Sequence record: NC_023693.1 | Length of the DNA: 64,000 nt | DNA from: Escherichia phage phi92 | Reading direction: 5' to 3' (one strand) | Shown: positions 2,252 to 20,764 of the stretch, one piece after another | How the letters are laid out: every line of letters begins with the position of its first letter | Numbering within the stretch: position 1 is the stretch's first letter | Notes under the pieces: model-generated | What the model was told of the DNA's origin: nothing | The model's database searches: none | The model's input: the letters and a program-made list of their open reading frames with translations, nothing else | Program-made: the position numbers and the translations under genes

Positions 2252-4665
2252 TGGCGAATTTTCCAACATATCCTGCTACGACACTAGAACAAGGTGTTGA
2301 TCTGGTTATATTCTCGTCTAACCAGATGCATGATGTTATTAATGGGGATGCTACAGCAACTGTAGAAACCGAAACAGGTTTAATACCTACACTGCGTAAA
2401 GCACTTGTTGATAACTTCTTCTTTAAGAGTCCTGTTGCTTGGTCAGCAGGATCAACTGAAACTGTATTTAACCAGTTACGTTATTTTGAAAACGGTATCT
2501 TGAGTGGGTACTATTATGCCCCATCTGCCACTACTGCGAACCCTGTACCTATGCAGGGCACACCTGTAGGGGACAGTAACTGGACTCTGTACGCTCTTAA
2601 AACTGAACAGTTAGCTTCAGATGTGTATCCTTGGTATTTTAAAGGTGCTACAGGATATGAAACAGAAATCAGTCCTCCTTATATCTTTGATAATGCTATT
2701 GTCACCATTAACGGTGTAATTCAGATTCAAGGTGAAGCATTTACTATCAAAGATAGTAAAATTATTCTGGCAGAACCATTAGGTTTAGATCCGTCTACTG
2801 GTCTACCTAACAAATTGTTTGCTTTTATTGGTAAAACAACAGCCTCTACTTCTTACGTAGAGAAAAACCTTTTGTCATCTACCACTGGTGCAGCAATGGT
2901 TGGTCTTCCATCTGGAGGCAACCTGTTACAAGCTCAATACTTTGTAACGCCTGAGCAGTTTGGTGCAATTGGTGATGGAGTTACCGATGATACTCAAGCA
3001 ATTTTAAAAACTATTACTTTCGCTAACACGAATAACATTCAAGTACGTGCAGATAAGAATTATAGATTCACAAGCTCAATTGCTATGTCTGGTGTTCGTT
3101 GGTATGGTGGTACATTCACTGGTAACGGTGGAACAATGATTTCTACTGTGTCCTGTTGGATGGAAAACGTTCGCTTTGAAAAATGTTATGTTAAGATGTT
3201 AGGTGGTGATTGCCGATTCTATCGTAATATCTTCTCCAACGCAACATCTACAGCAGCATTCTTAATGCAAGCAATGACAAGTGAAGGTACGTTGGACTTC
3301 AGTTACAACGAAATGTATGGTTGTAAATATGCGATCCTGCAACAAGGTACTGGAGAAGTAATGACCTATGGGCGTTACTCTAACAACTATATTCACGATA
3401 TCAAAGGTGATGCTATTGAACTTAACGTAGTTCAAAAACACTACACTGAAGGTTTGATTATCGAGAATAACCACATTGCTAACGTAGATGCTTCTGGACA
3501 AGGTGCAAACTGGGGTATTGGTATTGGTGTAGCAGGTAGTGGCCCATATGGTGTTGATGTTCCTGATTCACAATATGTACGTAACTTCAGTATCGTTGGG
3601 AATAGGGTTTACAATTGCCGTCAATGTCTACACGTTGAAATGGGTAAAAACTTCACGATACGTGATAATGAAGTTTATCCTAACACAGCAGTTTCAACAG
3701 GTACAGGTTTAACTACTTGTGGTGTTGCATTATACGGATGCCAAGATTTTGAAGTTGATGGTTTAACTGGTTATCTGCTTAATGATCCATCTGTTTCAAC
3801 ACGCATGGTCTTTATTGACTGGGGTGTTAACAATGGTAGATATGCGGGGCCACCAATTAACTTTACAATTAAGAATTTGGATATTCCAGAATCTTCAATT
3901 GAGATTGCAACATCTGGATCAGATGCCTGGGAAAACTCTACAATTGTTAGTAATATCAATTGTAATGTTTTTAAATGGCGTGGGCTACCATCTAGCTCTA
4001 CCTTTAATAATATTCGTTGCCGTAGTATTGACTTTATTGGTCAACACGGAAGCGGAGAAGGAAGTGGTGGCGGTTTCTATACTCGCAGCCAATTCACGTA
4101 TATGAAGTGGGTAGGATGTACAGCACTTAGCGGAGATGAAACAACAGTTTCTTTTGCTAAAATCTACACTGATCGTTGCGATCAGGTTGGAAATAACTTT
4201 GGTGTTCCAACTGCTGTTGATGGTACAGGTCATCGTGGGCCAGTTTTAACTACTATTTCTGAACAATATTTTACAGCTTATGATGAATTCCCAGGTGGGC
4301 GTGAATTCCCTACTGGAACAGTTATTCATTGTGCAAGCGGTAAAAAACATGTTGTTACAGTAGGTGGTGCTTTCTTTAGTGACAACGAGAAAATAAAAGC
4401 AACTGTTACAGGTCAAACCTATCTACAGTCTAATGCTTTAAACTGGGCTAGTAATGGCTACGCTAAAGCAGCAGGTACTAAGATTGTTATTCCAGGTGCA
4501 GGTGCAAATGGCGGCGATCTTGTGACAACTATAGCACGTGCTACATACGTGACAAATAGTTTGTACACAATAGATATTGCAGATCCAATTGTAACACCTA
4601 CAGCAGAGAATACACAAATTAAAGCTCTGAATCCTGTTACTTTTGTTACTGTCAATAATGCTTAA
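2251..4665 (+). CDS. tailspike / depolymerase with pectate-lyase-like beta-helix
   Basis: 804 aa; motif FGAIGDGVTDDTQAI typical of pectate-lyase-fold tailspikes; repetitive G/N/T/V-rich beta-strand segments. Confidence 0.65.
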   Translation: MANFPTYPATTLEQGVDLVIFSSNQMHDVINGDATATVETETGLIPTLRKALVDNFFFKSPVAWSAGSTETVFNQLRYFENGILSGYYYAPSATTANPVPMQGTPVGDSNWTLYALKTEQLASDVYPWYFKGATGYETEISPPYIFDNAIVTINGVIQIQGEAFTIKDSKIILAEPLGLDPSTGLPNKLFAFIGKTTASTSYVEKNLLSSTTGAAMVGLPSGGNLLQAQYFVTPEQFGAIGDGVTDDTQAILKTITFANTNNIQVRADKNYRFTSSIAMSGVRWYGGTFTGNGGTMISTVSCWMENVRFEKCYVKMLGGDCRFYRNIFSNATSTAAFLMQAMTSEGTLDFSYNEMYGCKYAILQQGTGEVMTYGRYSNNYIHDIKGDAIELNVVQKHYTEGLIIENNHIANVDASGQGANWGIGIGVAGSGPYGVDVPDSQYVRNFSIVGNRVYNCRQCLHVEMGKNFTIRDNEVYPNTAVSTGTGLTTCGVALYGCQDFEVDGLTGYLLNDPSVSTRMVFIDWGVNNGRYAGPPINFTIKNLDIPESSIEIATSGSDAWENSTIVSNINCNVFKWRGLPSSSTFNNIRCRSIDFIGQHGSGEGSGGGFYTRSQFTYMKWVGCTALSGDETTVSFAKIYTDRCDQVGNNFGVPTAVDGTGHRGPVLTTISEQYFTAYDEFPGGREFPTGTVIHCASGKKHVVTVGGAFFSDNEKIKATVTGQTYLQSNALNWASNGYAKAAGTKIVIPGAGANGGDLVTTIARATYVTNSLYTIDIADPIVTPTAENTQIKALNPVTFVTVNNA

Positions 4666-8370: not shown

Positions 8371-8377
8371 ACAAAAA

Positions 8378-8402
8378 GGAGCCATTAGGCTCCTTTTCTT
8401 TT
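8378..8402. terminator. bidirectional terminator hairpin at convergent strand switch
   Basis: GGAGCC-ATTA-GGCTCC flanked by A-run and T-run; + strand genes end at 8370, - strand genes end at 8406. Confidence 0.5.
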
Positions 8403-8405
8403 ATC

Positions 8406-8837
8406 TTAATCAGTGAAAATTACGCTTACATCTTCTTTAGAGAAGAGTTTATGATCTTCACCTTTTGTCTCAAGAGTTTCATACAGATTAAGAAGTTCTG
8501 AAACGTCTTTCTCTACCAGTTTCTTCAATGTTGCAATTTTCTGTTTGCGACTCTTAATACGTTCAGCTACAACCTTACGCTGGTATCCGGCAGTACGATA
8601 ACCTGAGAAAGTTACACCAGTGAGACTTGCAGTTACAGGATCGTAGTGACGTTCAATCTGAAATTTATTAAAAGGTACAGCGTCATCACGAATAATCTTA
8701 CCGCCATTACTTACTTGACGAAGACCAGTAACTTGCTCCAGTCGTGCCATAGAAATCTTTGGAGACAGACCAGAGTCTAGGTTCATACCATTGTTAATCA
8801 GTGCTTTCAGGGTGATTTTGCTGTTCAGTGTACTCAT
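8406..8837 (-). CDS. hypothetical protein
   Basis: 143 aa ORF; strong RBS ggagga upstream of the start; start overlaps the methyltransferase 3' end by 44 nt. Confidence 0.4.
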   Translation of the reverse strand: MSTLNSKITLKALINNGMNLDSGLSPKISMARLEQVTGLRQVSNGGKIIRDDAVPFNKFQIERHYDPVTASLTGVTFSGYRTAGYQRKVVAERIKSRKQKIATLKKLVEKDVSELLNLYETLETKGEDHKLFSKEDVSVIFTD

Positions 8838-9525
8838 TTAGTCGTTCCTCCGCTTGCTTAAAAATATTTACATCGGCTTCACAGCCAAAGTATTCTCTAC
8901 CTGTTAAAAGTGCCGCAACTTGTGTTGTTGCACTTCCAGAGAAGAAGTCTAAGACTACATCTCCTTCGTTGGTGTGTATATTAATAAGGTCACAAAACAA
9001 AGTCAAGTGTTTTTGTGTTGGATGAAAACGATCTGCTCCTTGATAGATAGGATACTCAAACACACCCTTATGGTAGGAAGCATTGAAGGTTGGCTTCGAA
9101 CCTTTAACACAAACAATAGCCATCTCTTTAGCGTTACTAAGATAGTTAACACCACTGTTGATGGGTACAGGGTTTGTTTTAATCCATTCAATAGTACGGA
9201 ACATACGAAAACCAAGCGGTTCAAGGATTTCACGTAGCTCCTGGATCTTCCAGATATCATACCAAACTATGCAAGTACCACCTTTTCTAAGCACCCTGTA
9301 GGCTTCTTTGAATACTTCTTTAAAGTAAGGAATATCTACAACATCCCAATCACCAAAGTTGTAAGATACACGGAATCTATCCGTATCTTTTCCAGTCGGC
9401 TCTCCAGATTGAAAATTTGTGTCACGAGAAATAGCATATGGTGGGTCAGTAAGAATCAAATCTACACTATTGCTTTCGAGGGTTTGCAGGTAGTTTAATG
9501 CGGTGTTGTTTACAAATTCGCTCAT
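8794..9525 (-). CDS. DNA methyltransferase (N6-adenine or N4-cytosine, DPPY type)
   Basis: Motif IV LILTDPPYA precedes motif I VVLDFFSGSATT; RBS aaggag; no restriction endonuclease gene recognised nearby. Confidence 0.7.
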   Translation of the reverse strand: MSEFVNNTALNYLQTLESNSVDLILTDPPYAISRDTNFQSGEPTGKDTDRFRVSYNFGDWDVVDIPYFKEVFKEAYRVLRKGGTCIVWYDIWKIQELREILEPLGFRMFRTIEWIKTNPVPINSGVNYLSNAKEMAIVCVKGSKPTFNASYHKGVFEYPIYQGADRFHPTQKHLTLFCDLINIHTNEGDVVLDFFSGSATTQVAALLTGREYFGCEADVNIFKQAEERLNEYTEQQNHPESTD

Positions 9526-9545
9526 TATATCTCCTTCAAAGAAAA

Positions 9546-9565
9546 GGAGCCGTTAGGCTCCTTAT
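9546..9565 (-). terminator. terminator hairpin
   Basis: GGAGCC-GTTA-GGCTCC with T-rich tail on the - strand, just downstream of the SSB-like gene. Confidence 0.45.
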
Positions 9566-9585
9566 ATTCACACAATACTTAACTA

Positions 9586-10533
9586 TTAGAAACAGTGCAG
9601 GAAGTTTCGACCATACTGCAAACCAATAGGAGCAAATGGGATATCATCATCGAAATCTTGAACAACAGGTTCTGATTCTTTCGGTGCTGGCTCTTTCTTC
9701 TCTACTTTTTTAGTTTCTTTCTTAACTTCTTGTACTGAGGTAGACATTCCACGGATAGCAGCAGCTACTTTATCAGACAAAGCAAGAACTTCACGAGCAG
9801 CTTCAATAATCTCTTCTGCCGTTACAGTTTTACCTGTATGATCACGACAAGCGTTAAGAATTGCGTGTCCAACTGAAGCACCAAGATCATAGTCAGTCGC
9901 AGCAGCGCCACGATCTTTAGCAATTTCTGCTTTCAGAGTAACAGTTGCAGATTGTACCACACCAGCCAAGTCGAAAGCATCACCTTTCACACCAGCACGT
10001 AGAAGCTCCAGAGCGCCGTTTACAGCGTGTCCTGTTTCAATCCCTACGGTATCACGTTTTTTGTAGTTAGGCTTGCTACCTTCGTTATTAGATGGCTTAT
10101 TTCCACCTTTTGAAGAAGATTGTGCTTGCTGAACACCTTCTGTTGAAAGAACAGTGATTTTACCTTTAGAGGAGTTGTAGTATGTTTTGCCATTCCATTC
10201 GGAAGGTTTAACATCTATAGTTACTTCTACACCTTTTTCGATAGTAATCCACTTATCACCATCTTTAACTTGCAGGTTTTCATGTTCTGGGTGCAGTTTA
10301 ACTTCACCTAGGCTAACCCAAACACCTTTATCATCAGCACCAGCACCTTTCTCTTTAATAAGCAGAGATGCTTTGTGAGTTGATTCAATTTTCTTATCTG
10401 GCTGACCTGCAACCTTAATATAAGAGACTTTCATTTCATCAAACTTATCCAGTTTGACATATTCAACGATACCTTCAGCCCAGAATGCTTCTTTTTTAGT
10501 ACGACGGTCGATTTCAGAATTAATTACTGGCAT
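9586..10533 (-). CDS. ssDNA-binding-like protein with SSB C-terminal-tip motif
   Basis: 315 aa; RBS gaggag; contains DFDDDIPF, identical to the acidic tip of bacterial SSB, near the C-terminus; Gly/Ser-rich linker before it. Confidence 0.45.
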   Translation of the reverse strand: MPVINSEIDRRTKKEAFWAEGIVEYVKLDKFDEMKVSYIKVAGQPDKKIESTHKASLLIKEKGAGADDKGVWVSLGEVKLHPEHENLQVKDGDKWITIEKGVEVTIDVKPSEWNGKTYYNSSKGKITVLSTEGVQQAQSSSKGGNKPSNNEGSKPNYKKRDTVGIETGHAVNGALELLRAGVKGDAFDLAGVVQSATVTLKAEIAKDRGAAATDYDLGASVGHAILNACRDHTGKTVTAEEIIEAAREVLALSDKVAAAIRGMSTSVQEVKKETKKVEKKEPAPKESEPVVQDFDDDIPFAPIGLQYGRNFLHCF

Positions 10534-10549
10534 AAATTCTCCTCTATAA

Positions 10550-10948
10550 TTACATTACTTTAACACAAAACTCTCGTAAAAGAGTAGCGTCAGTTTCTTC
10601 CAACAGGTATTTACCAAGACCAATACCAAATCCTATTTCACCACTTTCGAAATGGAGGATTTGTATCTTTTCTCCACCAAGGTTAATTACTTTTGCTTTT
10701 CCAGGATTATCCAAAACATCTCGTATTGTATCCTGTAGTAGCATTAGTTCACGTTTTGTGATAGTGGTTTCAGATATCTCTTTGTTTTCTACTCTCACTG
10801 TTAAACGGTTGTATCCACCAAAGAGACATAGTATTTGAATAAAAAAGGTATTATCTTGAGGTTCAACATCTTTTTTAGTTAGCTCAAGACGATTAGTTTC
10901 TCTACTGTAGAACGTCTCGACTAAGATTTTAGAACGATTATCTGTCAT
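10550..10948 (-). CDS. hypothetical protein
   Basis: 132 aa ORF with RBS gagga. Confidence 0.4.
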   Translation of the reverse strand: MTDNRSKILVETFYSRETNRLELTKKDVEPQDNTFFIQILCLFGGYNRLTVRVENKEISETTITKRELMLLQDTIRDVLDNPGKAKVINLGGEKIQILHFESGEIGFGIGLGKYLLEETDATLLREFCVKVM

Positions 10949-10991
10949 TCAAGTCCTCATAATAACACATAATTACAATGTTTGTCAACAC

Positions 10992-11722: not shown

Positions 11723-14700
11723 TCAGTGACAAGTTGACCATGAACTACCAACATCGTAACCAGCAGTGAGAGGTACATTAAGATTGTAATACTCACCAGC
11801 TTTATTAACAGCGATAGATGCTAATTCTCCAGCACGACTGTAGGCTGTAAACCAACCACCTTTCGGAGATTCATGTACGTTAGCCCAAATCTTGCCAGTA
11901 CGTTTCTCTTCCTCTTCTTTCCAGGCATTAACTTTATCCAAACATTCTTTATCAATTTTCTTTTGTTCCTCTGGATCATCAACTTGAGTCCAACCTAAAG
12001 ATTCTTTAGAGAACCATTTAAAATGCACCAGATCACGAGTTACTTCAAGCTGTGCTTCATCGTGATATGCAATCATTTGTTGAACGAATGACTTATTTTT
12101 CCAGTCATCAACAAAAAAGTCAACAGCTAATCCTTCTTCTTCGATAAGATCGTCGTAGATAACCATTGCTCTTTTTGCACAAATAACACCACCACTCTGG
12201 AACAGAGAGTTAAGTATTGCGTGTGCAGATCGTGTAGGTACTTTCCTACCATCAATACCAAGAATGTATTTCTTACCTGTTTTAACCCAAAAATCATGCA
12301 GACGTTCTTTAAGAAGCGCAAGAGGTTTTGCAGCTTCCCAGAAAGCATCGTATACAAGCTGTCCTGTATACATATCACTACCTATAGTTTTTGCTACTTT
12401 TGCAGCTTGAGCACCATAAGTAATACCATACTTAACAGATTTAGCAGGGCTTCGTTCAAACTTACGACCAATAGTGTCAGAAATACGTCGAGCCATCATT
12501 GTATGAACATCATTAGGTTTTTCCAATAATAGAGCATTACAATATTCGTGTGGTTCCTGCTCGTACCGCCAACAATTCCCTGTAATCGTGATGCAGTCTT
12601 TCTGACGCATAACCCATGTACCGAGTTCTGTTTGTGGACACCAAACATCTTCTACACCCCATTCTTCAATAGTCAGACTTTGAACAGGGATGTGAGAGCG
12701 GTTAGCCAACGTTGCCACTTTTACTTTCTGGTCTTTCGTATTGAAGGCTACAGAAATATTACCCCCATGAACCAGGTATGAGGCAGTTAAGGCTGCTTCA
12801 AAAAGTTCTCCTGGGTTCTGCGCCCAGCGCCAAACAGGTTTTTGTTTATGTTTGTGCCAGTAACCATCCGCAATCAAAAAACCTTCCAAGAAAGCCACAC
12901 GCTCGGCATGAGACATATTAACTACACGTTCTACCCACGGAACATCCCATTTACCTTGTTGAACAGAAGTTAAACTATTTACTTGATCTTGTTCCATGTT
13001 AAATGGAGCATTACAAATAATGTTATCTCCTGTGCAAAGCTCGGCAGTTGTTCTGACTTTAGGCACATAAGTATTCCCTGTACTACGAGTATTAACATAC
13101 CAACGGTGATCTGCTGTTGCACGATAAGTATGGGATTTTCCTTTAATCTCAAACGTCTTACTATTTTTATAGAAGACCTTACCTTTTACTTTAGTCCATT
13201 CTTTAAGTCCTGTTTCTGGGTTATATCCTAAGATTTCATCCCCTTCTTGTAGATCGTGATAACCAACCCAACCTTTACGGGTTAGTGCTTGTGCATCCAT
13301 AGGTACACAGTAGTGTGATTCTATTTTTGCCTCAAGAGAATCAAAGTCATAACCAATTTGGAAGTATTTTGGAACTTCTACACCAAATAAGTTACGCATT
13401 TCATATCCGTACAGAGATGTTACACGTGGGATATTTGCTACTAACCTATGTTTCATACGAGACGTAGCTGCATCACACGTTGCAGCAGGAGTTGGTATAC
13501 GACCATCAGCCCTTACTGCTGCCAGATAACCTTTATCGTAATCCTCTTCATCTTCTTCCCAATCAGCACCACCTCCTAGAATAGAGTTCCTACGGTGTTT
13601 ATACGTAAGATACTGCACAATCTGCGTAGCATAAGGAAACTTTTCACCTAGTGCTTCCAAGTTAGGACAAATATCTTTCTCTTGCCCTTTTGTAAAGGAA
13701 GGGTTAGTAAGCACTTTAACACCACGACCTTTAGCTTTAGCAATACGATCTCTTAGTTTCCATTCCAAAGTTTCTGGTGTGCACTCCAGATGATCACATC
13801 TGTCCTGGCAGAAGTTAGATGCCAATGTTTGATCAACATAGTCACGAATAGCTTTCTCCATTTGTGCTTCATCTTTCTTAATCTTAGTGCCAGATTTAAG
13901 AGTGATATCTTTATCTTTATATTCAGATGGACTCCAACCTAAACCAACTAACCAGTTTTTAATATGTGTCGTGTCGTCTAAAGTAGCAGGTACTGTAGGA
14001 TCACAAATAGGTTCTTCTGCTGGAATAGGTAGTTTAAACTCTTTACCTAAAGCAAATAACCACCAACCATCTTCTTTTTGTACAAGTTCACCAGAATGTT
14101 TCTCTGCAAACTTTATCATGTTACTTGAAGGTTCACCATTCTTTTTAAACTGTAGTTTAGGTGGAATGAATGATTTCAAATAACCTTTAGTAGCAGGTTT
14201 AGGAGGTAGCACAGGTTCTGCCTCTAAACGACATGCTTCCATTCGAGCATCCAGATCACGAATATTATCTTCTGCTTGTTTCATATTGAAAGCAAAGCCA
14301 CGGTGCTCTTGACGTGTAATAATATCCGCTACACGTTGTTCTAAGTTAAATGGTTCAGACCACTTATTATAATCACCCCACTCTTCCATCAAATAACGGA
14401 ACACTGCGGTGTTAGCTTTGTTATCGTAAATACAGTAATACAGCATATCTGCTGCAAATGTTTTAAATCTTTCAGTTTCAGGGATATTTTTTCTAAAATC
14501 AATTTTAACATCCCCTCCAGCTTTCTTAGATAACTCTGCCAGACTATGACCACCGAAGCGATCAGGGTTTAGTGTCTTACTTAAGATCATAGTATCACAA
14601 ATTTCAATGTTACTATTACCCCAAGTATTGTACTTAATACTGTAGTTGAGTTTAAAAAATAATTTAATTGCCAGTAAGTCAAAGTTAATGATGTTATGTC

Positions 14701-15037
14701 CAACTACTTTGGTAATTTTATAGTTTGAATTACCTTTAAATTTACCTGTTCCATTTACAAAATCAGGAAAATCTTTAAGAGGGAAATGGGTATATTCTAA
14801 ATGCTCATATTCCTCCAGTCGGTATTCATACTTTCCGTCAGTCTCAACATACGGACGACCATCGAAAAGATATTTATCACCATCATGGAAAGCAATAATC
14901 TCTCCAGTATCATGACTTTCGCACACAATACAGTGCATTGCAAAACTATCTTTTAAACGATATGGACTTGCCAAGTAATCTACACTTTCGTCATTAAGCA
15001 AGTTGTTACTTTCAATGTCGAAAGTAAAAGCTCCCAT
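11723..15037 (-). CDS. family A DNA polymerase with 3'-5' exonuclease domain, interrupted by an intein
   Basis: Exo I FDIES; motif A DFDSLEAKI; motif B RSPAKSVKYGITYG; motif C YHDEAQLEV; in-frame insertion between motifs A and B. Confidence 0.8.
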   Translation of the reverse strand: MGAFTFDIESNNLLNDESVDYLASPYRLKDSFAMHCIVCESHDTGEIIAFHDGDKYLFDGRPYVETDGKYEYRLEEYEHLEYTHFPLKDFPDFVNGTGKFKGNSNYKITKVVGHNIINFDLLAIKLFFKLNYSIKYNTWGNSNIEICDTMILSKTLNPDRFGGHSLAELSKKAGGDVKIDFRKNIPETERFKTFAADMLYYCIYDNKANTAVFRYLMEEWGDYNKWSEPFNLEQRVADIITRQEHRGFAFNMKQAEDNIRDLDARMEACRLEAEPVLPPKPATKGYLKSFIPPKLQFKKNGEPSSNMIKFAEKHSGELVQKEDGWWLFALGKEFKLPIPAEEPICDPTVPATLDDTTHIKNWLVGLGWSPSEYKDKDITLKSGTKIKKDEAQMEKAIRDYVDQTLASNFCQDRCDHLECTPETLEWKLRDRIAKAKGRGVKVLTNPSFTKGQEKDICPNLEALGEKFPYATQIVQYLTYKHRRNSILGGGADWEEDEEDYDKGYLAAVRADGRIPTPAATCDAATSRMKHRLVANIPRVTSLYGYEMRNLFGVEVPKYFQIGYDFDSLEAKIESHYCVPMDAQALTRKGWVGYHDLQEGDEILGYNPETGLKEWTKVKGKVFYKNSKTFEIKGKSHTYRATADHRWYVNTRSTGNTYVPKVRTTAELCTGDNIICNAPFNMEQDQVNSLTSVQQGKWDVPWVERVVNMSHAERVAFLEGFLIADGYWHKHKQKPVWRWAQNPGELFEAALTASYLVHGGNISVAFNTKDQKVKVATLANRSHIPVQSLTIEEWGVEDVWCPQTELGTWVMRQKDCITITGNCWRYEQEPHEYCNALLLEKPNDVHTMMARRISDTIGRKFERSPAKSVKYGITYGAQAAKVAKTIGSDMYTGQLVYDAFWEAAKPLALLKERLHDFWVKTGKKYILGIDGRKVPTRSAHAILNSLFQSGGVICAKRAMVIYDDLIEEEGLAVDFFVDDWKNKSFVQQMIAYHDEAQLEVTRDLVHFKWFSKESLGWTQVDDPEEQKKIDKECLDKVNAWKEEEEKRTGKIWANVHESPKGGWFTAYSRAGELASIAVNKAGEYYNLNVPLTAGYDVGSSWSTCH
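12575..13309 (-). other. intein inside the DNA polymerase gene (boundaries approximate)
   Basis: Starts CVPMDAQALTRKGW after motif A, contains TADH block and LAGLIDADG-like FLEGFLIADGYW, ends ...ITITGN before CWRY; extein then resumes with NDVHT as in T7 polymerase GDIHT. Confidence 0.5.
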
Positions 15038-17318: not shown

Positions 17319-17588
17319 CTAAAATGATTCGTTTGTCTCCATAATATATTGCATTTCCAAATCTTCCATATGTTTCTTAAATTGGTAAACAATTTCCGAT
17401 GGGGAAATATCTATATCAAAAAGTTCTTTTGTACCAGAATAAAATCTAATACCATCAACAATAAGACCACCATAATAATCCCAATCACTTTCTCGTGAGA
17501 AAGGATTAGGTTCTTCATAATAGTAATCTACTTCAACAATAATAGGTTCTTTATTATCTTGTTTATACTCAAAATCAAAAGTGTTCAT
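17319..17588 (-). CDS. hypothetical protein
   Basis: 89 aa ORF in operon context. Confidence 0.35.
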   Translation of the reverse strand: MNTFDFEYKQDNKEPIIVEVDYYYEEPNPFSRESDWDYYGGLIVDGIRFYSGTKELFDIDISPSEIVYQFKKHMEDLEMQYIMETNESF

Positions 17589-18532
17589 TATAAATCCTCG
17601 ATAAGCAGTCTGCGGGTTTCATTTAAATCATCAATATTGTAGTTATCTCTTACATACTTAGCAAGAGCCAATCCTTTCTCAATACAAACATCAGGAGATT
17701 CGATTAAGTATTCTACAATATCTTTCCACTCTTTAACTGAATCAGCAAAGAAGATTAGATCTTTAAATTCTTCAGTATAGTAGTTCTCTCGTGGTGAACA
17801 AACGAGTGGCAAACCTTTAGCACCAGCTTCAAGAATTTTTAAATTACTTTTGGCATTATTAAAATGATTATTTACTAATGGAGCTATGGAGATTTGATGA
17901 CCATCGTATGCTTCCATATAACACTCATAAGGACGAATACCTTCATAAACACAACCTGGTTGAATATCTTCTTTAATTTGCAACCATTGAGCACTACTTA
18001 ACTCTTCGTGATCTCTACGAAATCCACATAAAGTTAAATCTTTACCAAAATCAGGAAGAATTGCTAAATCATGTTTATGTGTTTCACTTCCCGCCCAAAC
18101 TAGTGGACTTTTAGAATAACGGTCTTTAGTAAGAACAAACTGTCCTTCATCAAAAGGTAATCCGTTAGGCACAATATGTACATTATCATTGTATTGGCTT
18201 AATTCAACCTTTAATGCCGGAGTTGTTGTGGTTACAAGATCGCTTCTTTCAAGGAACCATTTTAGGTCATCTCGGATTTGATTTTCAAATAGTCCTTCAA
18301 GCATATGCCCTTCAGGAATAATTAAAGAATCATCCAGATCCATTACCAATTTAAACCCAATTTGTTTAAGAGCCAGGAAACCTGGCTTTCCACGTGTTGG
18401 TACTCCATTGAACACAAAAATATTATGCTTAGGATTAATGGTCAGTTTGCGTTTATATGGCAAAATGATTCTATGAAAATCACATACACTATACTTTTCA
18501 TTTCCGCGTGTGTCAAGAATAATATTAGGCAT
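17588..18532 (-). CDS. glycosyltransferase-like protein (paralog 1)
   Basis: 314 aa; clear paralog of the next gene (shared HRIILPY/HRIVMPF, VWAGSETH/IWAGGASH, ILEAGAKGLP); E-x7-E-like C-terminal motif of GT-B enzymes. Confidence 0.5.
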   Translation of the reverse strand: MPNIILDTRGNEKYSVCDFHRIILPYKRKLTINPKHNIFVFNGVPTRGKPGFLALKQIGFKLVMDLDDSLIIPEGHMLEGLFENQIRDDLKWFLERSDLVTTTTPALKVELSQYNDNVHIVPNGLPFDEGQFVLTKDRYSKSPLVWAGSETHKHDLAILPDFGKDLTLCGFRRDHEELSSAQWLQIKEDIQPGCVYEGIRPYECYMEAYDGHQISIAPLVNNHFNNAKSNLKILEAGAKGLPLVCSPRENYYTEEFKDLIFFADSVKEWKDIVEYLIESPDVCIEKGLALAKYVRDNYNIDDLNETRRLLIEDL

Positions 18533-18543
18533 ATAACTCCTTG

Positions 18544-19557
18544 TTAAAGACTTTCAATAACTTGACGACGCAGTTCATTGGCATCTGCAAGATTATAATT
18601 AAGACGAACGTGTTCTGCAAGCATCATACCACGATCTTCTGTGTATCTAGGATTCCTAATTAGCTTGACAACTTCATAGTGCCAAGATGCTTTAGAGTCT
18701 GCATAGATAACAGCCTTTGCATCTACCGGATTGAAGTACGGCAGCACAGGAGAACAGATAATAGGAAGACCCTTTGCACCTGCTTCCAAAATCTTCAAAT
18801 TGCTTTTACAGTTGTTGAAGTCATTATCTACCAGAGGAGCAATTGCAATACTATGACCGTCATACACAGACATATACTCACCTAAATTTTTAATAGCTGG
18901 TTTATACTGTGCATTTGGAATTTTACGTTTTATTTTAACCCACTCCGCAGTAGTTAGATACTGACTATTATTTCCAACAGGTGCAGAAGGATACACTTCA
19001 TACCCTGCAATTGTCAATAGTGTATCATCAAATGTATTAGCTACAAGAGATAAATCAGGCTCATGGCTTGCTCCTCCAGCCCAGATAATAGGTGTGTCAG
19101 AACTACGGTCTTTTGTCAAAGTAAATTGACCTTCGTCGTAAGGTAGTGCGTTTCTAATTACGACAACATTACGATTTAAATGACGAATTTTGTAAGCTAG
19201 GTATTCTGTTGTTACAGTAACAACATCTGCTAACTTAACCATCTCTACAATAGTCTTTGAATGATTAGTAAATACGCCAGCCATATAATGTTCAGGATTA
19301 AGTGAATAAAAGTCATCTAAATCAACAATAATCTTAACACCTTGTGCCTTCAGGCGTTTAACCTCGTCTGCTCCACGAGAATACACTCTATTAAAAACTA
19401 AAACGTCTTTCTTAGGTTTAAATGTATTTCCAGCAAATGGCATTACAATACGATGGTAATCACAACCACTGCCTAACTTATTATCACACTTAAGTACAGG
19501 AGTATTAGGATTTACCATATTTTTGAGCCTCCTCATAAGAGATAAAAGTTTTACCAT
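18544..19557 (-). CDS. glycosyltransferase-like protein (paralog 2)
   Basis: 337 aa; paralog of 17588-18532. Confidence 0.5.
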   Translation of the reverse strand: MVKLLSLMRRLKNMVNPNTPVLKCDNKLGSGCDYHRIVMPFAGNTFKPKKDVLVFNRVYSRGADEVKRLKAQGVKIIVDLDDFYSLNPEHYMAGVFTNHSKTIVEMVKLADVVTVTTEYLAYKIRHLNRNVVVIRNALPYDEGQFTLTKDRSSDTPIIWAGGASHEPDLSLVANTFDDTLLTIAGYEVYPSAPVGNNSQYLTTAEWVKIKRKIPNAQYKPAIKNLGEYMSVYDGHSIAIAPLVDNDFNNCKSNLKILEAGAKGLPIICSPVLPYFNPVDAKAVIYADSKASWHYEVVKLIRNPRYTEDRGMMLAEHVRLNYNLADANELRRQVIESL

Positions 19558-20191
19558 TGCGAAGATCCTCCAGAGATTGTTTATATTGTTCCCAGTTTAC
19601 ACCAATCCCCTGTTCTTTCTCTTCTTTTGACAGATTCGCAAAAGGTAAAGGATTGTCTCCAAACACATCATCAGGATGGATAAACGCCATAATTCGAATA
19701 GGACATGGCACGCCTTGAATACCTCGGTTCAAACCTGCCAGTGGAACGCGATGAATCCACTCTGCATCTTCATATCCATAACCGTGGGTGTATGAGCGGA
19801 AATAGCCAGCTTTCTCAATAACTGCACGGGAATACATACCAAACTGGCACATACCTAGTTCCCAAATAACCACTTCCCCTTCAATACCTTTTACTTTATC
19901 TTTAAAGTATTCAGGCATACCAAAGAAATCCCAACCATTTTCCTTCGCCTGTTTTACAAAATATGTTTCCCAACCTGGAACAACAGGATAACAATCATCA
20001 TCAAAAATAAACCAGTAGTCATACCCTTCATCATAAAACTTTTTCATCAGTTCATTACGGGCATATGCAACACCTTTTCGTTCACGATCATACTGTACAA
20101 CAAAAGTAGCATTAGGATCAGTTACAAGATAATCTTTAAGAGGACGCTTACCTACAGTAATAACACCAACACCAATTTTTGTATTTTCCAA
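19505..20191 (-). CDS. GT-A-like glycosyltransferase
   Basis: 228 aa; DxD-type acidic motif YWFIFDDDCYP after a Rossmann-like N-terminus. Confidence 0.45.
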   Translation of the reverse strand: MENTKIGVGVITVGKRPLKDYLVTDPNATFVVQYDRERKGVAYARNELMKKFYDEGYDYWFIFDDDCYPVVPGWETYFVKQAKENGWDFFGMPEYFKDKVKGIEGEVVIWELGMCQFGMYSRAVIEKAGYFRSYTHGYGYEDAEWIHRVPLAGLNRGIQGVPCPIRIMAFIHPDDVFGDNPLPFANLSKEEKEQGIGVNWEQYKQSLEDLRNGKTFISYEEAQKYGKS

Positions 20192-20200
20192 AATAACTCC

Positions 20201-20764
20201 TTAAATAATTTTATTCATGTCTTGACAATGTAAAAGGTGTGAAACAGCTTTTCTAGGATCATCATTACCTAAACGGTATGTGTGAAATAAATATAACCCA
20301 CGTAGTAAACCTAGCCTTTTATTGTTAGCGTGCAATGCTTTAGAGAAAATTATATCAAACTGTATTGATCTTTCCTCAAAAGGAATTTCATTCCACAGAC
20401 TCTTACGAAAGAGAAGAAAGAATCCTGCTAAGATAGCATCTGTAGGTACTTCCTCTATTGAGTTTCCCCATTCTAGATGTGCTCTTTTTGCAATCTCAAT
20501 GTGGTGTAATATATTCGGATCTTCACTTCTTTCATTATTAAATAATTGATATGTTGATCCCAATCTGTTACAAGATGCACCAAGAACATCAAAATCAGGA
20601 TTTGAACGGACAATTGATTCCAGCCAAGCAGGTTGTTCTGGAAGAAGAAACATTGTATCAATGTCTCTTAGGCAAATCCAACTATCTTCTGGTAAGACAC
20701 TTATTGTGTCATTGATACCTTTTCCAATATCTCCAGAAAGATAGGGAGTTATGTGAAATATCAT
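20201..20764 (-). CDS. hypothetical protein (possible fourth glycosyltransferase-like gene)
   Basis: 187 aa ORF contiguous with the glycosyltransferase operon; acidic motif ICLRDIDTMF. Confidence 0.35.
   Translation of the reverse strand: MIFHITPYLSGDIGKGINDTISVLPEDSWICLRDIDTMFLLPEQPAWLESIVRSNPDFDVLGASCNRLGSTYQLFNNERSEDPNILHHIEIAKRAHLEWGNSIEEVPTDAILAGFFLLFRKSLWNEIPFEERSIQFDIIFSKALHANNKRLGLLRGLYLFHTYRLGNDDPRKAVSHLLHCQDMNKII

What the first reader, a model, noticed from the sequence alone, without database searches (positions are those of the whole stretch)
9586..10533. Phage protein carrying the exact bacterial SSB tip motif DFDDDIPF
The octapeptide DFDDDIPF, identical to the C-terminal tip through which bacterial SSB recruits its partner proteins, appears near the end of a 315-residue protein, preceded by a Gly/Ser-rich flexible linker and followed by 15 more residues. 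Either this is the phage SSB (with an unusual C-terminal extension) or a mimic that hijacks host SSB-interacting proteins.
Basis: partly seen in the sequence, partly recalled or inferred. Interest (0 to 1): 0.5.

Follow-up and report, generated by a model that had tools for sequence, protein, structure and literature searches.

The report
Phage SSB with capped host-type tip
This gene most likely encodes the phage's own single-stranded-DNA-binding protein, of an uncharacterised type, whose tail copies the host SSB docking peptide and then adds 15 residues; those residues are a conserved add-on of unknown role seen on many unrelated phage SSBs.

Summary
A 315-residue ORF on the minus strand (9586-10533) carries DFDDDIPF at residues 293-300, followed by APIGLQYGRNFLHCF. 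The chance expectation for the octapeptide in this window is 5e-7.

The motif is family-wide: 95 of 96 homologues have D[IVL]PF and the other ends EIPF; 75 end exactly at the tip.

The protein is most likely the phage SSB, but not a canonical one:
- No Pfam hit; TIGR00621 scores 16 bits against a 54-bit cut-off, on the tail only.
- After it come a four-helix domain and a disordered tail.
- The gene closes the primase/helicase and DNA polymerase I operon.
- A 98%-identical phage has no other annotated SSB.

The 15-residue extension is the interesting part. It is a portable peptide found on canonical SSBs and at least seven other PHROG scaffolds. It shows a protein-level selection pattern, is patchy among close relatives, and occurs in prophage ssb genes of about 3-7% of complete E. 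coli genomes. I found no literature on it.

Homing-endonuclease genes often start inside the extension, and this window keeps a relic of one. The function of the extension is unresolved.

The parts
9586..10533 (-). Whole gene, 315 aa plus stop: candidate non-canonical phage SSB (PHROG 4477)
   Evidence: ORF list and translation. phrog_4477, E 1.8e-100. 98% identical to 'hypothetical protein' of Escherichia phages Nernie, cardinal and ECGD1.
10138..10533 (-). N-terminal OB-fold domain, aa 1-132
10054..10137 (-). Gly/Ser/Asn/Lys-rich interdomain linker, aa 133-160
   Evidence: pLDDT 43-65. Net charge +5. rV5-type homologues carry an extra domain of about 90 aa here.
9748..10053 (-). Four-helix domain, aa 161-262 (ETGHAxNGAL ... 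DYDLGASVGHAILNACR), role unknown
   Evidence: Helices 163-179, 186-208, 215-230 and 239-261 with pLDDT >90. Invariant G168, G218, G222. The only structural matches are designed helical repeats.
9658..9747 (-). Lys/Glu/Pro-rich disordered tail linker, aa 263-292
   Evidence: pLDDT about 48-58. Variable in length and sequence across homologues.
9634..9657 (-). SSB-Ct tip DFDDDIPF, aa 293-300
   Evidence: Identical to the E. coli SSB C-terminus. P299 and F300 invariant, D293/D295/D297 at least 92% conserved in 71 homologues. Exact octapeptide in 60 of 96 family members.
9589..9633 (-). Post-tip extension APIGLQYGRNFLHCF, aa 301-315
   Evidence: Present in 20 of 96 family members and patchy on the tree. 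The same motif occurs on PF00436 SSBs, phrog_44, 7364/18154, 9002, 2544, 32668 and 3284. Codon-position diversity 0.23/0.15/0.66.
9579..9614 (-). Relic of a homing-endonuclease gene start in the +1 frame (MVETSCTVSNS*)
   Evidence: Its first 6 codons match the 164-aa endonuclease ORF that overlaps the extension in locus L008. The DNA after the stop resembles that gene's 5' end.
9544..9563 (-). Intrinsic-terminator-like hairpin closing the operon
   Evidence: AAGGAGCCTAACGGCTCCTT followed by TTCTTTG. 96% identical over 25 nt to the DNA that follows the endonuclease gene in L008.
10539..10544 (-). Ribosome-binding site GAGGAG, 5 nt before the ATG
   Evidence: Sequence read.
10550..10948 (-). Co-transcribed upstream ORF of 132 aa (phrog_16560, unknown function)
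   Evidence: An ORF of 130-135 aa lies directly upstream in 7 related loci read here (L001, L002, L008, L009, L013-L015).
10959..10988 (-). Sigma-70-like promoter match, TTGACA-18-TATTAT with TG (11 of 12)
   Evidence: Consensus scan only. The number of such sites in the region is not above the shuffle expectation.

Best explanation
**What it is.** The gene most likely encodes the phage's own single-stranded-DNA-binding protein, from an uncharacterised family (PHROG 4477) shared by Stephanstirmvirinae, rV5-like and related large myoviruses.

**Architecture.**
- an N-terminal OB fold, inferred to bind ssDNA through conserved Trp/Tyr/Lys residues;
- a flexible linker;
- a conserved four-helix domain, possibly for oligomerisation or partner binding (inferred);
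- a disordered Lys/Glu/Pro tail;
- the host-identical docking peptide DFDDDIPF.

**How it likely works.** As in bacterial SSB, the tail would tether genome-maintenance proteins to phage ssDNA. Those proteins could be host or phage encoded.

**The extension.** In this phage the tip is followed by a 15-residue peptide, consensus A-P-[IV]-G-L-[QM]-[YH]-x4-[IL]-[HY]-x-hydrophobic-COOH.
- It is a portable, selected module found on many unrelated phage and prophage SSBs.
- Known SSB-Ct pockets grip the free carboxylate of the last Phe (established knowledge, not tested here). The extension should therefore change which partners bind.
- My preferred guess is that it adds or retargets a contact with a conserved host protein.
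- Masking the tip, or removal by processing, are the alternatives.

**History.** In this lineage the extension has hosted the start of a homing-endonuclease gene. That gene has since been deleted from this phage.
For: **Shown**
- ORF and motif.
- Family-wide conservation: 95 of 96 members have D[IVL]PF and the other ends EIPF; 75 end at the tip; 20 carry a 14-17 aa extension and one a single extra residue.
- AlphaFold model from 71 sequences, mean pLDDT 82.8, both domains above 90.
- OB-fold matches to ssDNA-binding domains.
- Conserved aromatic and basic residues in the OB domain.
- Operon of primase/helicase, DNA polymerase I, nucleotidyltransferase, ORF132 and this gene, ending in a terminator.
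- No CDS annotated as SSB among the 294 features of phage Nernie.
- No tblastn hit below E 0.7 with five SSB cores against the window and the Nernie genome.
- Some depositors already label orthologues 'SSB'.

**Extension**
- 193 phage records carry tip plus extension.
- It sits on a lambdoid canonical SSB and on Vibrio phage SSBs, and on PHROGs 44, 7364, 9002, 2544, 32668 and 3284.
- The exhaustive HMM search gave 141 cluster representatives at E up to 0.001 for the tail profile. 44 of the 103 not seen in earlier searches carry an extension.
- Variation concentrates at third codon positions.
- All 6 DNA differences between the window and L008 are synonymous in the SSB frame.
- The tip stays conserved in extension-bearing proteins.
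- The mEp235-type tail DNA is in 169-408 of 5426 complete E. coli genomes. Both sampled bacterial copies lie in prophages.

**Inferred**
- ssDNA binding, partner recruitment, and any role of the extension.
Against: - There is no sequence similarity to any described SSB outside the tail: Pfam gives nothing at E up to 1, and TIGR00621 scores 16 bits against a 53.95 cut-off.
- Absence of another SSB rests on annotation and sequence searches, which would miss another novel family.
- An extension after the terminal Phe should block the canonical carboxylate-dependent docking. The tip may therefore not work as in bacterial SSB in this particular phage.
- AlphaFold gives no structure for the tail (pLDDT about 50).
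- No experimental data exist for any family member, as far as my searches reached.
Confidence: 0.7

Rival explanations
1. SSB-tip decoy. The protein does not coat ssDNA. It uses the host-identical tail to titrate or relocate host SSB-interacting proteins such as ExoI, RecQ, PriA or Ung, away from host SSB.
For: - The tail is identical to the host tip, and many relatives share the host's longer PPMDFDDDIPF.
- rV5-type relatives duplicate the acidic motif (MDFDEPPMDFDDDIPF).
- SSB profile models do not recognise the body of the protein.
Against: - A decoy needs no OB fold, yet the OB domain is the best conserved and most confidently modelled part and has conserved aromatic and basic residues.
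- The gene sits in the replication operon.
- The phage would otherwise lack an SSB while encoding its own polymerase, primase/helicase and ligase.
- The extension would weaken canonical tip docking, which a decoy should maximise.
Confidence: 0.08
2. A different OB-fold replication or recombination accessory factor, for example a helicase loader, a PriB-like primosome component or an annealing mediator. It would carry an SSB-like tail to ride on, or compete with, host SSB. The phage would rely on host SSB to coat its ssDNA.
For: - The closest structures include RPA32, STN1, MCM10 and PriB, which are accessory OB proteins rather than primary coaters.
- The extra four-helix domain has no counterpart in bacterial SSB.
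- A conserved ORF of about 132 aa always lies directly upstream, suggesting a two-protein module.
Against: - The layout of OB domain, disordered linker and acidic tip is that of SSBs.
- The same tail module sits on bona fide SSB families elsewhere.
- Large lytic phages with their own replisome usually encode an SSB (general knowledge, not tested here).
Confidence: 0.15
3. The 15-residue extension has no function in the protein. It would be a by-product of a homing-endonuclease cassette that inserts at the conserved 3' end of ssb genes, moves the stop codon downstream and uses the overlap for translational coupling. In this window only the scar remains.
For: - In 5 of 9 extension-bearing loci of this family, an endonuclease ORF (phrog_2340 or phrog_1035) starts inside the extension with an 8-29 nt overlap: L008, rV5 L010, L013, L014, L015.
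- The window keeps the first six codons of that ORF and a 5' relic.
- Presence and absence flip between close relatives, and identical extensions sit on distant branches.
Against: - The first seven extension codons, which lie outside the overlap, vary mainly at third positions (0.23/0.15/0.66). That indicates selection on the peptide.
- The extension exists without any endonuclease gene in L020-L022 and in mEp235, K437b, K290 and 191E37-1.
- It occurs on at least eight scaffolds.
- In phage nepoznato the endonuclease gene sits directly after the tip with no extension.
- The phAPEC8 downstream DNA is unrelated to extension-coding DNA.
Confidence: 0.15

Closest known systems
Bacterial SSB (E. 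coli Ssb; Pfam PF00436, NCBIfam TIGR00621)
   Same: An OB-fold core, an intrinsically disordered linker and an acidic C-terminal docking peptide. The last eight tip residues are identical (DFDDDIPF). Many family members share the host's PPMDFDDDIPF, or even PSNEPPMDFDDDIPF.
   Different: - No detectable sequence homology in the OB domain.
- An extra conserved four-helix domain.
- The linker is Lys/Glu/Pro-rich rather than Gly/Gln/Pro-rich.
- In this phage the tip is internal, followed by 15 residues.
- Oligomeric state unknown.
RPA32 / STN1 type OB proteins (PDB 2pi2, 8soj/8sok, 4joi)
   Different: Sequence identity is 8-14%, the scores are modest, and those proteins work in eukaryotic heterotrimers. 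This is a resemblance of fold only, with no evidence of common descent.
Prophage canonical SSB with the same tail (Enterobacteria phage mEp235 gp31, and the ssb genes of E. coli prophages)
   Same: It carries the same composite tail...NEPPMDFDDDIPF followed by APVTLPFPRHAIHAI. It is phage-borne and sits next to recombination genes (Erf, Exo, Abc2).
   Different: Its body is an ordinary PF00436/TIGR00621 SSB (167 bits) with no helical domain. The extension sequence is a different variant.
Phage HK620 SSB and its partner Sak4 (PMC5928155)
   Same: A phage SSB whose last six residues (NDYPPF, likened by the authors to DDDIPF) are needed to recruit a phage recombination protein onto SSB-coated ssDNA. 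This is a precedent for phage SSB tails with their own partner specificity.
   Different: The motif is different and truly C-terminal, the partner is known, and the protein is a distant PF00436 relative. Nothing comparable has been tested for the present family.
Free-standing homing endonuclease genes next to conserved phage genes (general knowledge of T4 seg/mob-type elements)
   Same: Endonuclease ORFs (phrog_2340, phrog_1035) are nested at the conserved 3' end of the ssb-like gene in relatives. Their distribution is patchy.
   Different: No cleavage site or homing has been shown. The gene is absent from this window apart from a relic. Pfam does not recognise these ORFs.

Membership tests
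Canonical bacterial/phage SSB (PF00436, TIGR00621) | Profile-HMM match of the OB core above the curated threshold | tested here: not met
   Pfam gives no family at E up to 1. TIGR00621 scores 16.2 bits against a cut-off of 53.95, aligned only to aa 231-300. A profile of 71 homologues hits PDB SSB chains only through the last 27 residues.
Canonical bacterial/phage SSB (PF00436, TIGR00621) | OB-fold DNA-binding domain | tested here: met
Canonical bacterial/phage SSB (PF00436, TIGR00621) | Disordered linker followed by an acidic tip that ends the protein in a free Phe carboxylate | tested here: not met
   The linker and DFDDDIPF are present, but 15 residues follow the Phe in this protein. The feature is met in 75 of 96 family members, which end at the tip.
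Canonical bacterial/phage SSB (PF00436, TIGR00621) | Cooperative ssDNA binding as a homo-oligomer | not testable with these tools
   Needs purified protein (EMSA, SEC-MALS).
PHROG 4477 (phage protein family, function unknown) | Full-length profile match | tested here: met
   E 1.8e-100, 337.7 bits. There are 96 homologues down to 26% identity with the same domain order.
SSB-Ct mimic / decoy with no nucleic-acid-binding body | No DNA-binding domain; the tail is the only conserved element | tested here: not met
   The OB domain and the helical domain are both conserved and confidently folded.
Tip-plus-extension tail module (defined here; not a described family) | D-D-[IV]-P-F followed by 14-17 residues matching A-P-[IV]-G-L-x-[YHF]...hydrophobic-COOH | tested here: met
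   The window tail fits the consensus built from more than 100 tails.
Beta-clamp-binding motif (QL[SD]LF / QLxLxL) | Gln at position 1 and hydrophobic residues at the consensus positions, at or near a terminus | tested here: inconclusive
   By eye only. Some variants end ...PQLLWCM or ...PALLNCM, which resembles the motif. The window's RNFLHCF and the common RHAIHAI do not fit.

The most novel reading that the evidence does not exclude
The 14-17-residue peptide that follows DDDIPF would be a phage-specific 'cap' on the SSB interaction hub. It would be a horizontally exchanged module that unrelated phages bolt onto at least eight different SSB scaffolds. Its effect would be to change what the tip recruits: docking a conserved gamma-proteobacterial host protein, hiding the tip from host nucleases, or evading SSB-sensing defence systems. 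If so, the rule that SSB-Ct must be the free C-terminus would have a widespread natural exception, present in about 3-7% of complete E. coli genomes but annotated as plain 'ssb'.
Probability: 0.35. Interest if true: 0.75.

Novelty: new variant of a known kind. Interest (0 to 1): 0.55.

Why it matters
**An SSB candidate for a large phage group.** rV5-like and phAPEC8-like phages are common in E. coli, Salmonella and Klebsiella phage collections. The rV5 genome paper lists their replication proteins without any SSB. Assigning PHROG 4477 fills that gap. It also points to three more unknown families with the same tail (phrog_2544, 32668, 3284) as likely non-canonical SSBs.

**A natural exception to the free-C-terminus rule.** The SSB C-terminal tip is the central docking site for more than a dozen genome-maintenance proteins and is an antibacterial target (PMC5872125). 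A conserved natural extension of that tip, spread across unrelated phages, is a ready-made probe of how the hub can be retargeted or blocked.

**A link to phage defence.** Phage SSBs are reported triggers of several defence systems: Retron-Eco8, Hachiman, Nhi, AbpAB and Hna (PMC13381803). Tail variation that flips on and off between close relatives is the pattern an arms race would give. No such link was tested here.

Tried and rejected
**Ideas tested and rejected**
- *Extension created by simple loss of the stop codon.* Rejected: in phAPEC8 and L009 the DNA after IPF-stop is unrelated to extension-coding DNA.
- *Extension strictly tied to a homing endonuclease.* Suggested by the first five loci, then rejected. 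L020-L022 and five loci outside the family have the extension without one, and nepoznato has the endonuclease without the extension.
- *Clamp-binding motif, ssrA/MuA-like degron, SulA-like Lon tag, FtsZ C-terminal peptide.* These are resemblances seen by eye only. None fits the whole set of variants, and none is claimed.
- *A hidden canonical SSB elsewhere in the phage.* Not found.

**Searches that led nowhere**
- Sequence search of PDB with the single protein gave only noise.
- Literature searches for the extension strings returned no paper.
- Searches on phage SSB C-terminal extensions found nothing relevant.
- The search on homing endonucleases at ssb genes also found nothing on that point.
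- The four-helix domain gave no informative structural match.
- Pfam did not recognise the endonuclease ORFs. PHROGs did.

- The tail-profile search of the 5.8-billion-protein set returned only short fragments.
- The AlphaFold-database fold library was not available.

Full report
**1. Observation**

Window 9586..10533 is a single ORF of 315 codons, read on the minus strand. DFDDDIPF occupies residues 293-300. It is followed by APIGLQYGRNFLHCF and a stop codon.

The octapeptide is the C-terminus of E. coli SSB as deposited in PDB (1eqq_A ends ...SNEPPMDFDDDIPF). With the amino-acid composition of the window's six frames, 5e-7 occurrences are expected. It occurs once in the window and once in the genome of a 98%-identical phage.

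One detail of the finding is wrong. The residues just before the motif are Lys/Glu/Pro-rich, not Gly/Ser-rich. The Gly/Ser/Asn-rich stretch is at residues 133-160, between the two folded domains.

**2. Source and context**

The window comes from an E. coli myovirus of about 146 kb. It is close to phages Nernie, cardinal and ECGD1 (98% protein identity) and related to phAPEC8 (59%) and rV5-like phages (about 36%).

On the minus strand the order is:
- primase/helicase (DnaB_C plus Toprim);
- family A DNA polymerase;
- a nucleotidyltransferase;
- a 132-aa ORF;
- this gene.

A GAGGAG ribosome-binding site lies 5 nt before the ATG. A promoter-like site precedes the 132-aa ORF. A hairpin with a T-tract lies 22 nt after the stop.

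**3. The protein**

Sequence profiles do not place it:
- Pfam finds nothing, even at E = 1.
- PHROGs places it in phrog_4477, 'unknown function' (E 1.8e-100). SSB PHROGs match only residues 252-300.
- NCBIfam TIGR00621 scores 16 bits against a cut-off of 54, again on the tail.
- A profile of 71 homologues hits PDB SSB chains only through the last 27 positions.

An AlphaFold model built on those 71 sequences has mean pLDDT 82.8. It shows:
- a beta-rich domain, residues 1-130, pLDDT >90;
- a disordered linker;
- a four-helix domain, residues 163-261, pLDDT >90;
- a disordered tail.

Structural searches agree on an OB fold for the N-terminal domain:
- Foldseek gives the same kinds of proteins at weak E-values. 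STN1 is first, and plasmid PrgE and lactococcal phage p2 SSB are also listed.
- The viral structure library returns only uncharacterised phage proteins.

Within the OB domain, W72, W95, Y118, Y119, K90 and K116 are conserved. That is what an ssDNA-binding surface would need. This last step is inference.

**4. Is it the phage SSB?**

Points for:
- The domain logic of OB fold, disordered linker and acidic tip.
- The replication operon.
- The tip is a family trait. Of 96 homologues, 95 carry D[IVL]PF and the other ends in EIPF. 75 end exactly at the tip, and 60 have the exact octapeptide.
- The complete genome of Nernie has no CDS annotated as SSB among 294 features. It does encode a polymerase, primase/helicase, a second helicase, a ligase, exonucleases and a DprA-like protein.
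- tblastn with five SSB cores finds nothing better than E 0.7 in the window or in Nernie.
- The rV5 genome paper does not mention an SSB at all.

Points against:
- The fold scores are modest.
- OB folds are versatile.
- There is no biochemistry.

I put the SSB reading at about 0.7.

**5. The 15 extra residues**

They are not a private oddity.

*Within the family*
- 20 of 96 members carry a 14-17-residue extension after the tip.
- On a tree built from the folded domains, presence and absence switch at least ten times. One switch separates the window protein from an 86%-identical relative.
- Identical extensions sit on distant branches: the window and P0032 are 64% identical, and P0055 shares its extension with P0064.

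*Outside the family*
- tblastn with the tail finds 193 phage records that contain tip plus extension.
- They include the canonical SSB of lambdoid phage mEp235 (...DDDIPFAPVTLPFPRHAIHAI) and Vibrio phage SSBs of another family (...DDDIPFAPVGLQFGKKFMHVI).
- An exhaustive profile search of 1.84 billion cluster representatives gave 141 hits at E up to 0.001. Of the 103 not seen in earlier searches, 44 carry an extension.
- By PHROG, the bodies belong to phrog_44, 7364/18154 and 9002 (all annotated SSB), and to 2544, 32668 and 3284 (unknown function). PF00436 and 4477 add two more scaffolds.
- The mEp235-type tail DNA is present in 408 of 5426 complete E. coli genomes, 169 of them at 80% coverage or more. 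It is annotated simply 'ssb'.
- Two bacterial copies that I inspected lie in prophages.

*Selection*
- Over nine loci, the first seven extension codons differ mainly at third positions. Mean pairwise difference is 0.23, 0.15 and 0.66 per site for positions 1, 2 and 3. The tip gives 0.08, 0.06 and 0.53.
- The six DNA differences between the window and L008 in the extension are all synonymous.
- The tip remains conserved in extension-bearing proteins.

So the peptide is under selection as a peptide, together with the tip.

*Literature*

Full-text searches for the strings PIGLQY, DDDIPFAP, DIPFAP, PRHAIHAI, GLQYGRN, PRHAIYVI and IPFAPV returned no paper.

**6. A mobile-element twist**

- In five extension-bearing loci of this family (L008, rV5 L010, L013, L014, L015), an endonuclease ORF starts inside the extension and overlaps it by 8-29 nt. 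These ORFs match phrog_2340 or phrog_1035 and share a CxxC...KCKEC N-terminal module.
- The window has no such gene. Even so, the +1 frame of its extension still reads MVETSC, the first six codons of the L008 endonuclease.
- The bases after the stop resemble that gene's 5' end, and the terminator matches the DNA that follows the endonuclease in L008. This allele therefore looks like a deletion derivative.
- The link is not strict. Three further extension-bearing loci lack the endonuclease, as do mEp235, K437b, K290 and 191E37-1.
- Phage nepoznato has the endonuclease directly after a DFDDNIPF tip with no extension.

My reading is that the conserved 3' end of these ssb genes is a favoured landing site for homing endonucleases. 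That probably helps spread the tail by co-conversion, but the extension is not merely their scar.

**7. Mechanism**

*Shown:* the architecture, the conservation, the portability and the selection pattern.

*Established knowledge, not tested here:* SSB-Ct pockets in partner proteins hold the terminal Phe side chain and its free carboxylate.

*Inferred:* a tip followed by 15 residues cannot dock in that canonical way. The extension must therefore mask the tip, be removed, or form a composite motif with another specificity.

The phages that carry it have unrelated replication and recombination genes but related hosts (Enterobacterales, Vibrio and relatives). A conserved host protein is therefore the most economical partner. 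I cannot name it.

Phage SSBs are also reported triggers of several defence systems (PMC13381803). No connection to the extension was tested.

**8. Comparison and novelty**

- It works like an SSB, but it fails the sequence test for the canonical SSB family. In this phage it also fails the 'free C-terminal Phe' feature.
- It is a member of PHROG 4477. Some depositors already call orthologues 'SSB', presumably because of the tail.
- I class it as a new variant of a known kind.
- The extension module is the part a specialist would find surprising.

Noticed in passing
window 12575-13309 (minus strand), inside the DNA polymerase gene 11723-15037: The family A DNA polymerase has a clean 245-aa insertion (aa 577-821) that starts with Cys and ends ...GN followed by Cys. 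It contains an LEGFLIADGYW-type motif. The insertion is absent from the otherwise 99%-identical polymerase of phage Nernie. It looks like an intein with a homing-endonuclease core, although Pfam did not flag it.
   Followed up: partly
L008 3405-3899; L010 (rV5) 2544-3167; L013 2744-3172; L014 2768-3196; L015 2714-3061; L011 2536-2967; relic at window 9579-9614: Endonuclease genes (phrog_2340 or phrog_1035) with a shared Zn-finger-like N-terminus start inside, or directly after, the 3' end of the SSB-like gene in several relatives. The window keeps only the first six codons. The ssb 3' end seems to be a homing hot spot.
   Followed up: partly
window 8373-8398 and 9544-9563, flanking 8406-9525: Two nearly identical terminator hairpins (AAGGAGCCTAA[C/T]GGCTCCTT) bracket a cassette made of an N6/N4 DNA methyltransferase (8794-9525) and a 143-aa ORF (8406-8837, phrog_20244). 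The cassette is absent at this position in phAPEC8_ev052 and in locus L009, where the SSB gene is followed directly by tail genes. It looks like an insertion at the terminator.
   Followed up: partly
window 10550-10948 (minus strand); L001, L002, L008, L009, L013, L014, L015 directly upstream of the SSB-like gene: A 130-135-aa ORF of unknown function (phrog_16560) lies immediately upstream of the SSB-like gene in seven related loci read here, and shares its transcription unit in the window. It could be a partner protein.
   Followed up: no
P0064, P0065, P0067-P0070 and similar; rV5 gp209 (L010 1301-2572): rV5-type homologues (about 400 aa) carry an extra domain of roughly 90 residues between the OB and helical domains (KVYGEIT...GGRL...GFKAYGP). 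Some also duplicate the acidic motif before the tip (MDFDEPPMDFDDDIPF).
   Followed up: no
P0230, P0239, P0247 (phrog_2544); P0270 (phrog_32668); P0225 (phrog_3284): Three further phage protein families of unknown function, 268-480 aa long, end in the same tip-plus-extension tail. They are candidates for additional unrecognised SSB families.
   Followed up: no
L018 5695-6231; L019 5669-6192: In two bacterial prophages the extension-bearing ssb gene is called as two ORFs: a PF00436 head and a separate tail fragment. The cause could be a frameshift or a pseudogene. Many 'partial SSB' database entries are such tails.
   Followed up: no
L016 (mEp013) 1117-1581 and 1550-1843: In lambdoid phage mEp013 a non-endonuclease ORF of 97 aa starts at the same ATG that the Gln-Tyr-Gly codons of the extension create (caaTATGG). 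The same site is used by the rV5 and L008 endonucleases. The extension repeatedly supplies a start codon for the next gene.
   Followed up: no
window 17588-20764 (minus strand): Four ORFs in this stretch match the coordinates of four consecutive CDS annotated 'glycosyltransferase' in the near-identical phage Nernie. That would suggest DNA or surface sugar modification. I mapped them by coordinates only and did not check protein identity.
   Followed up: no
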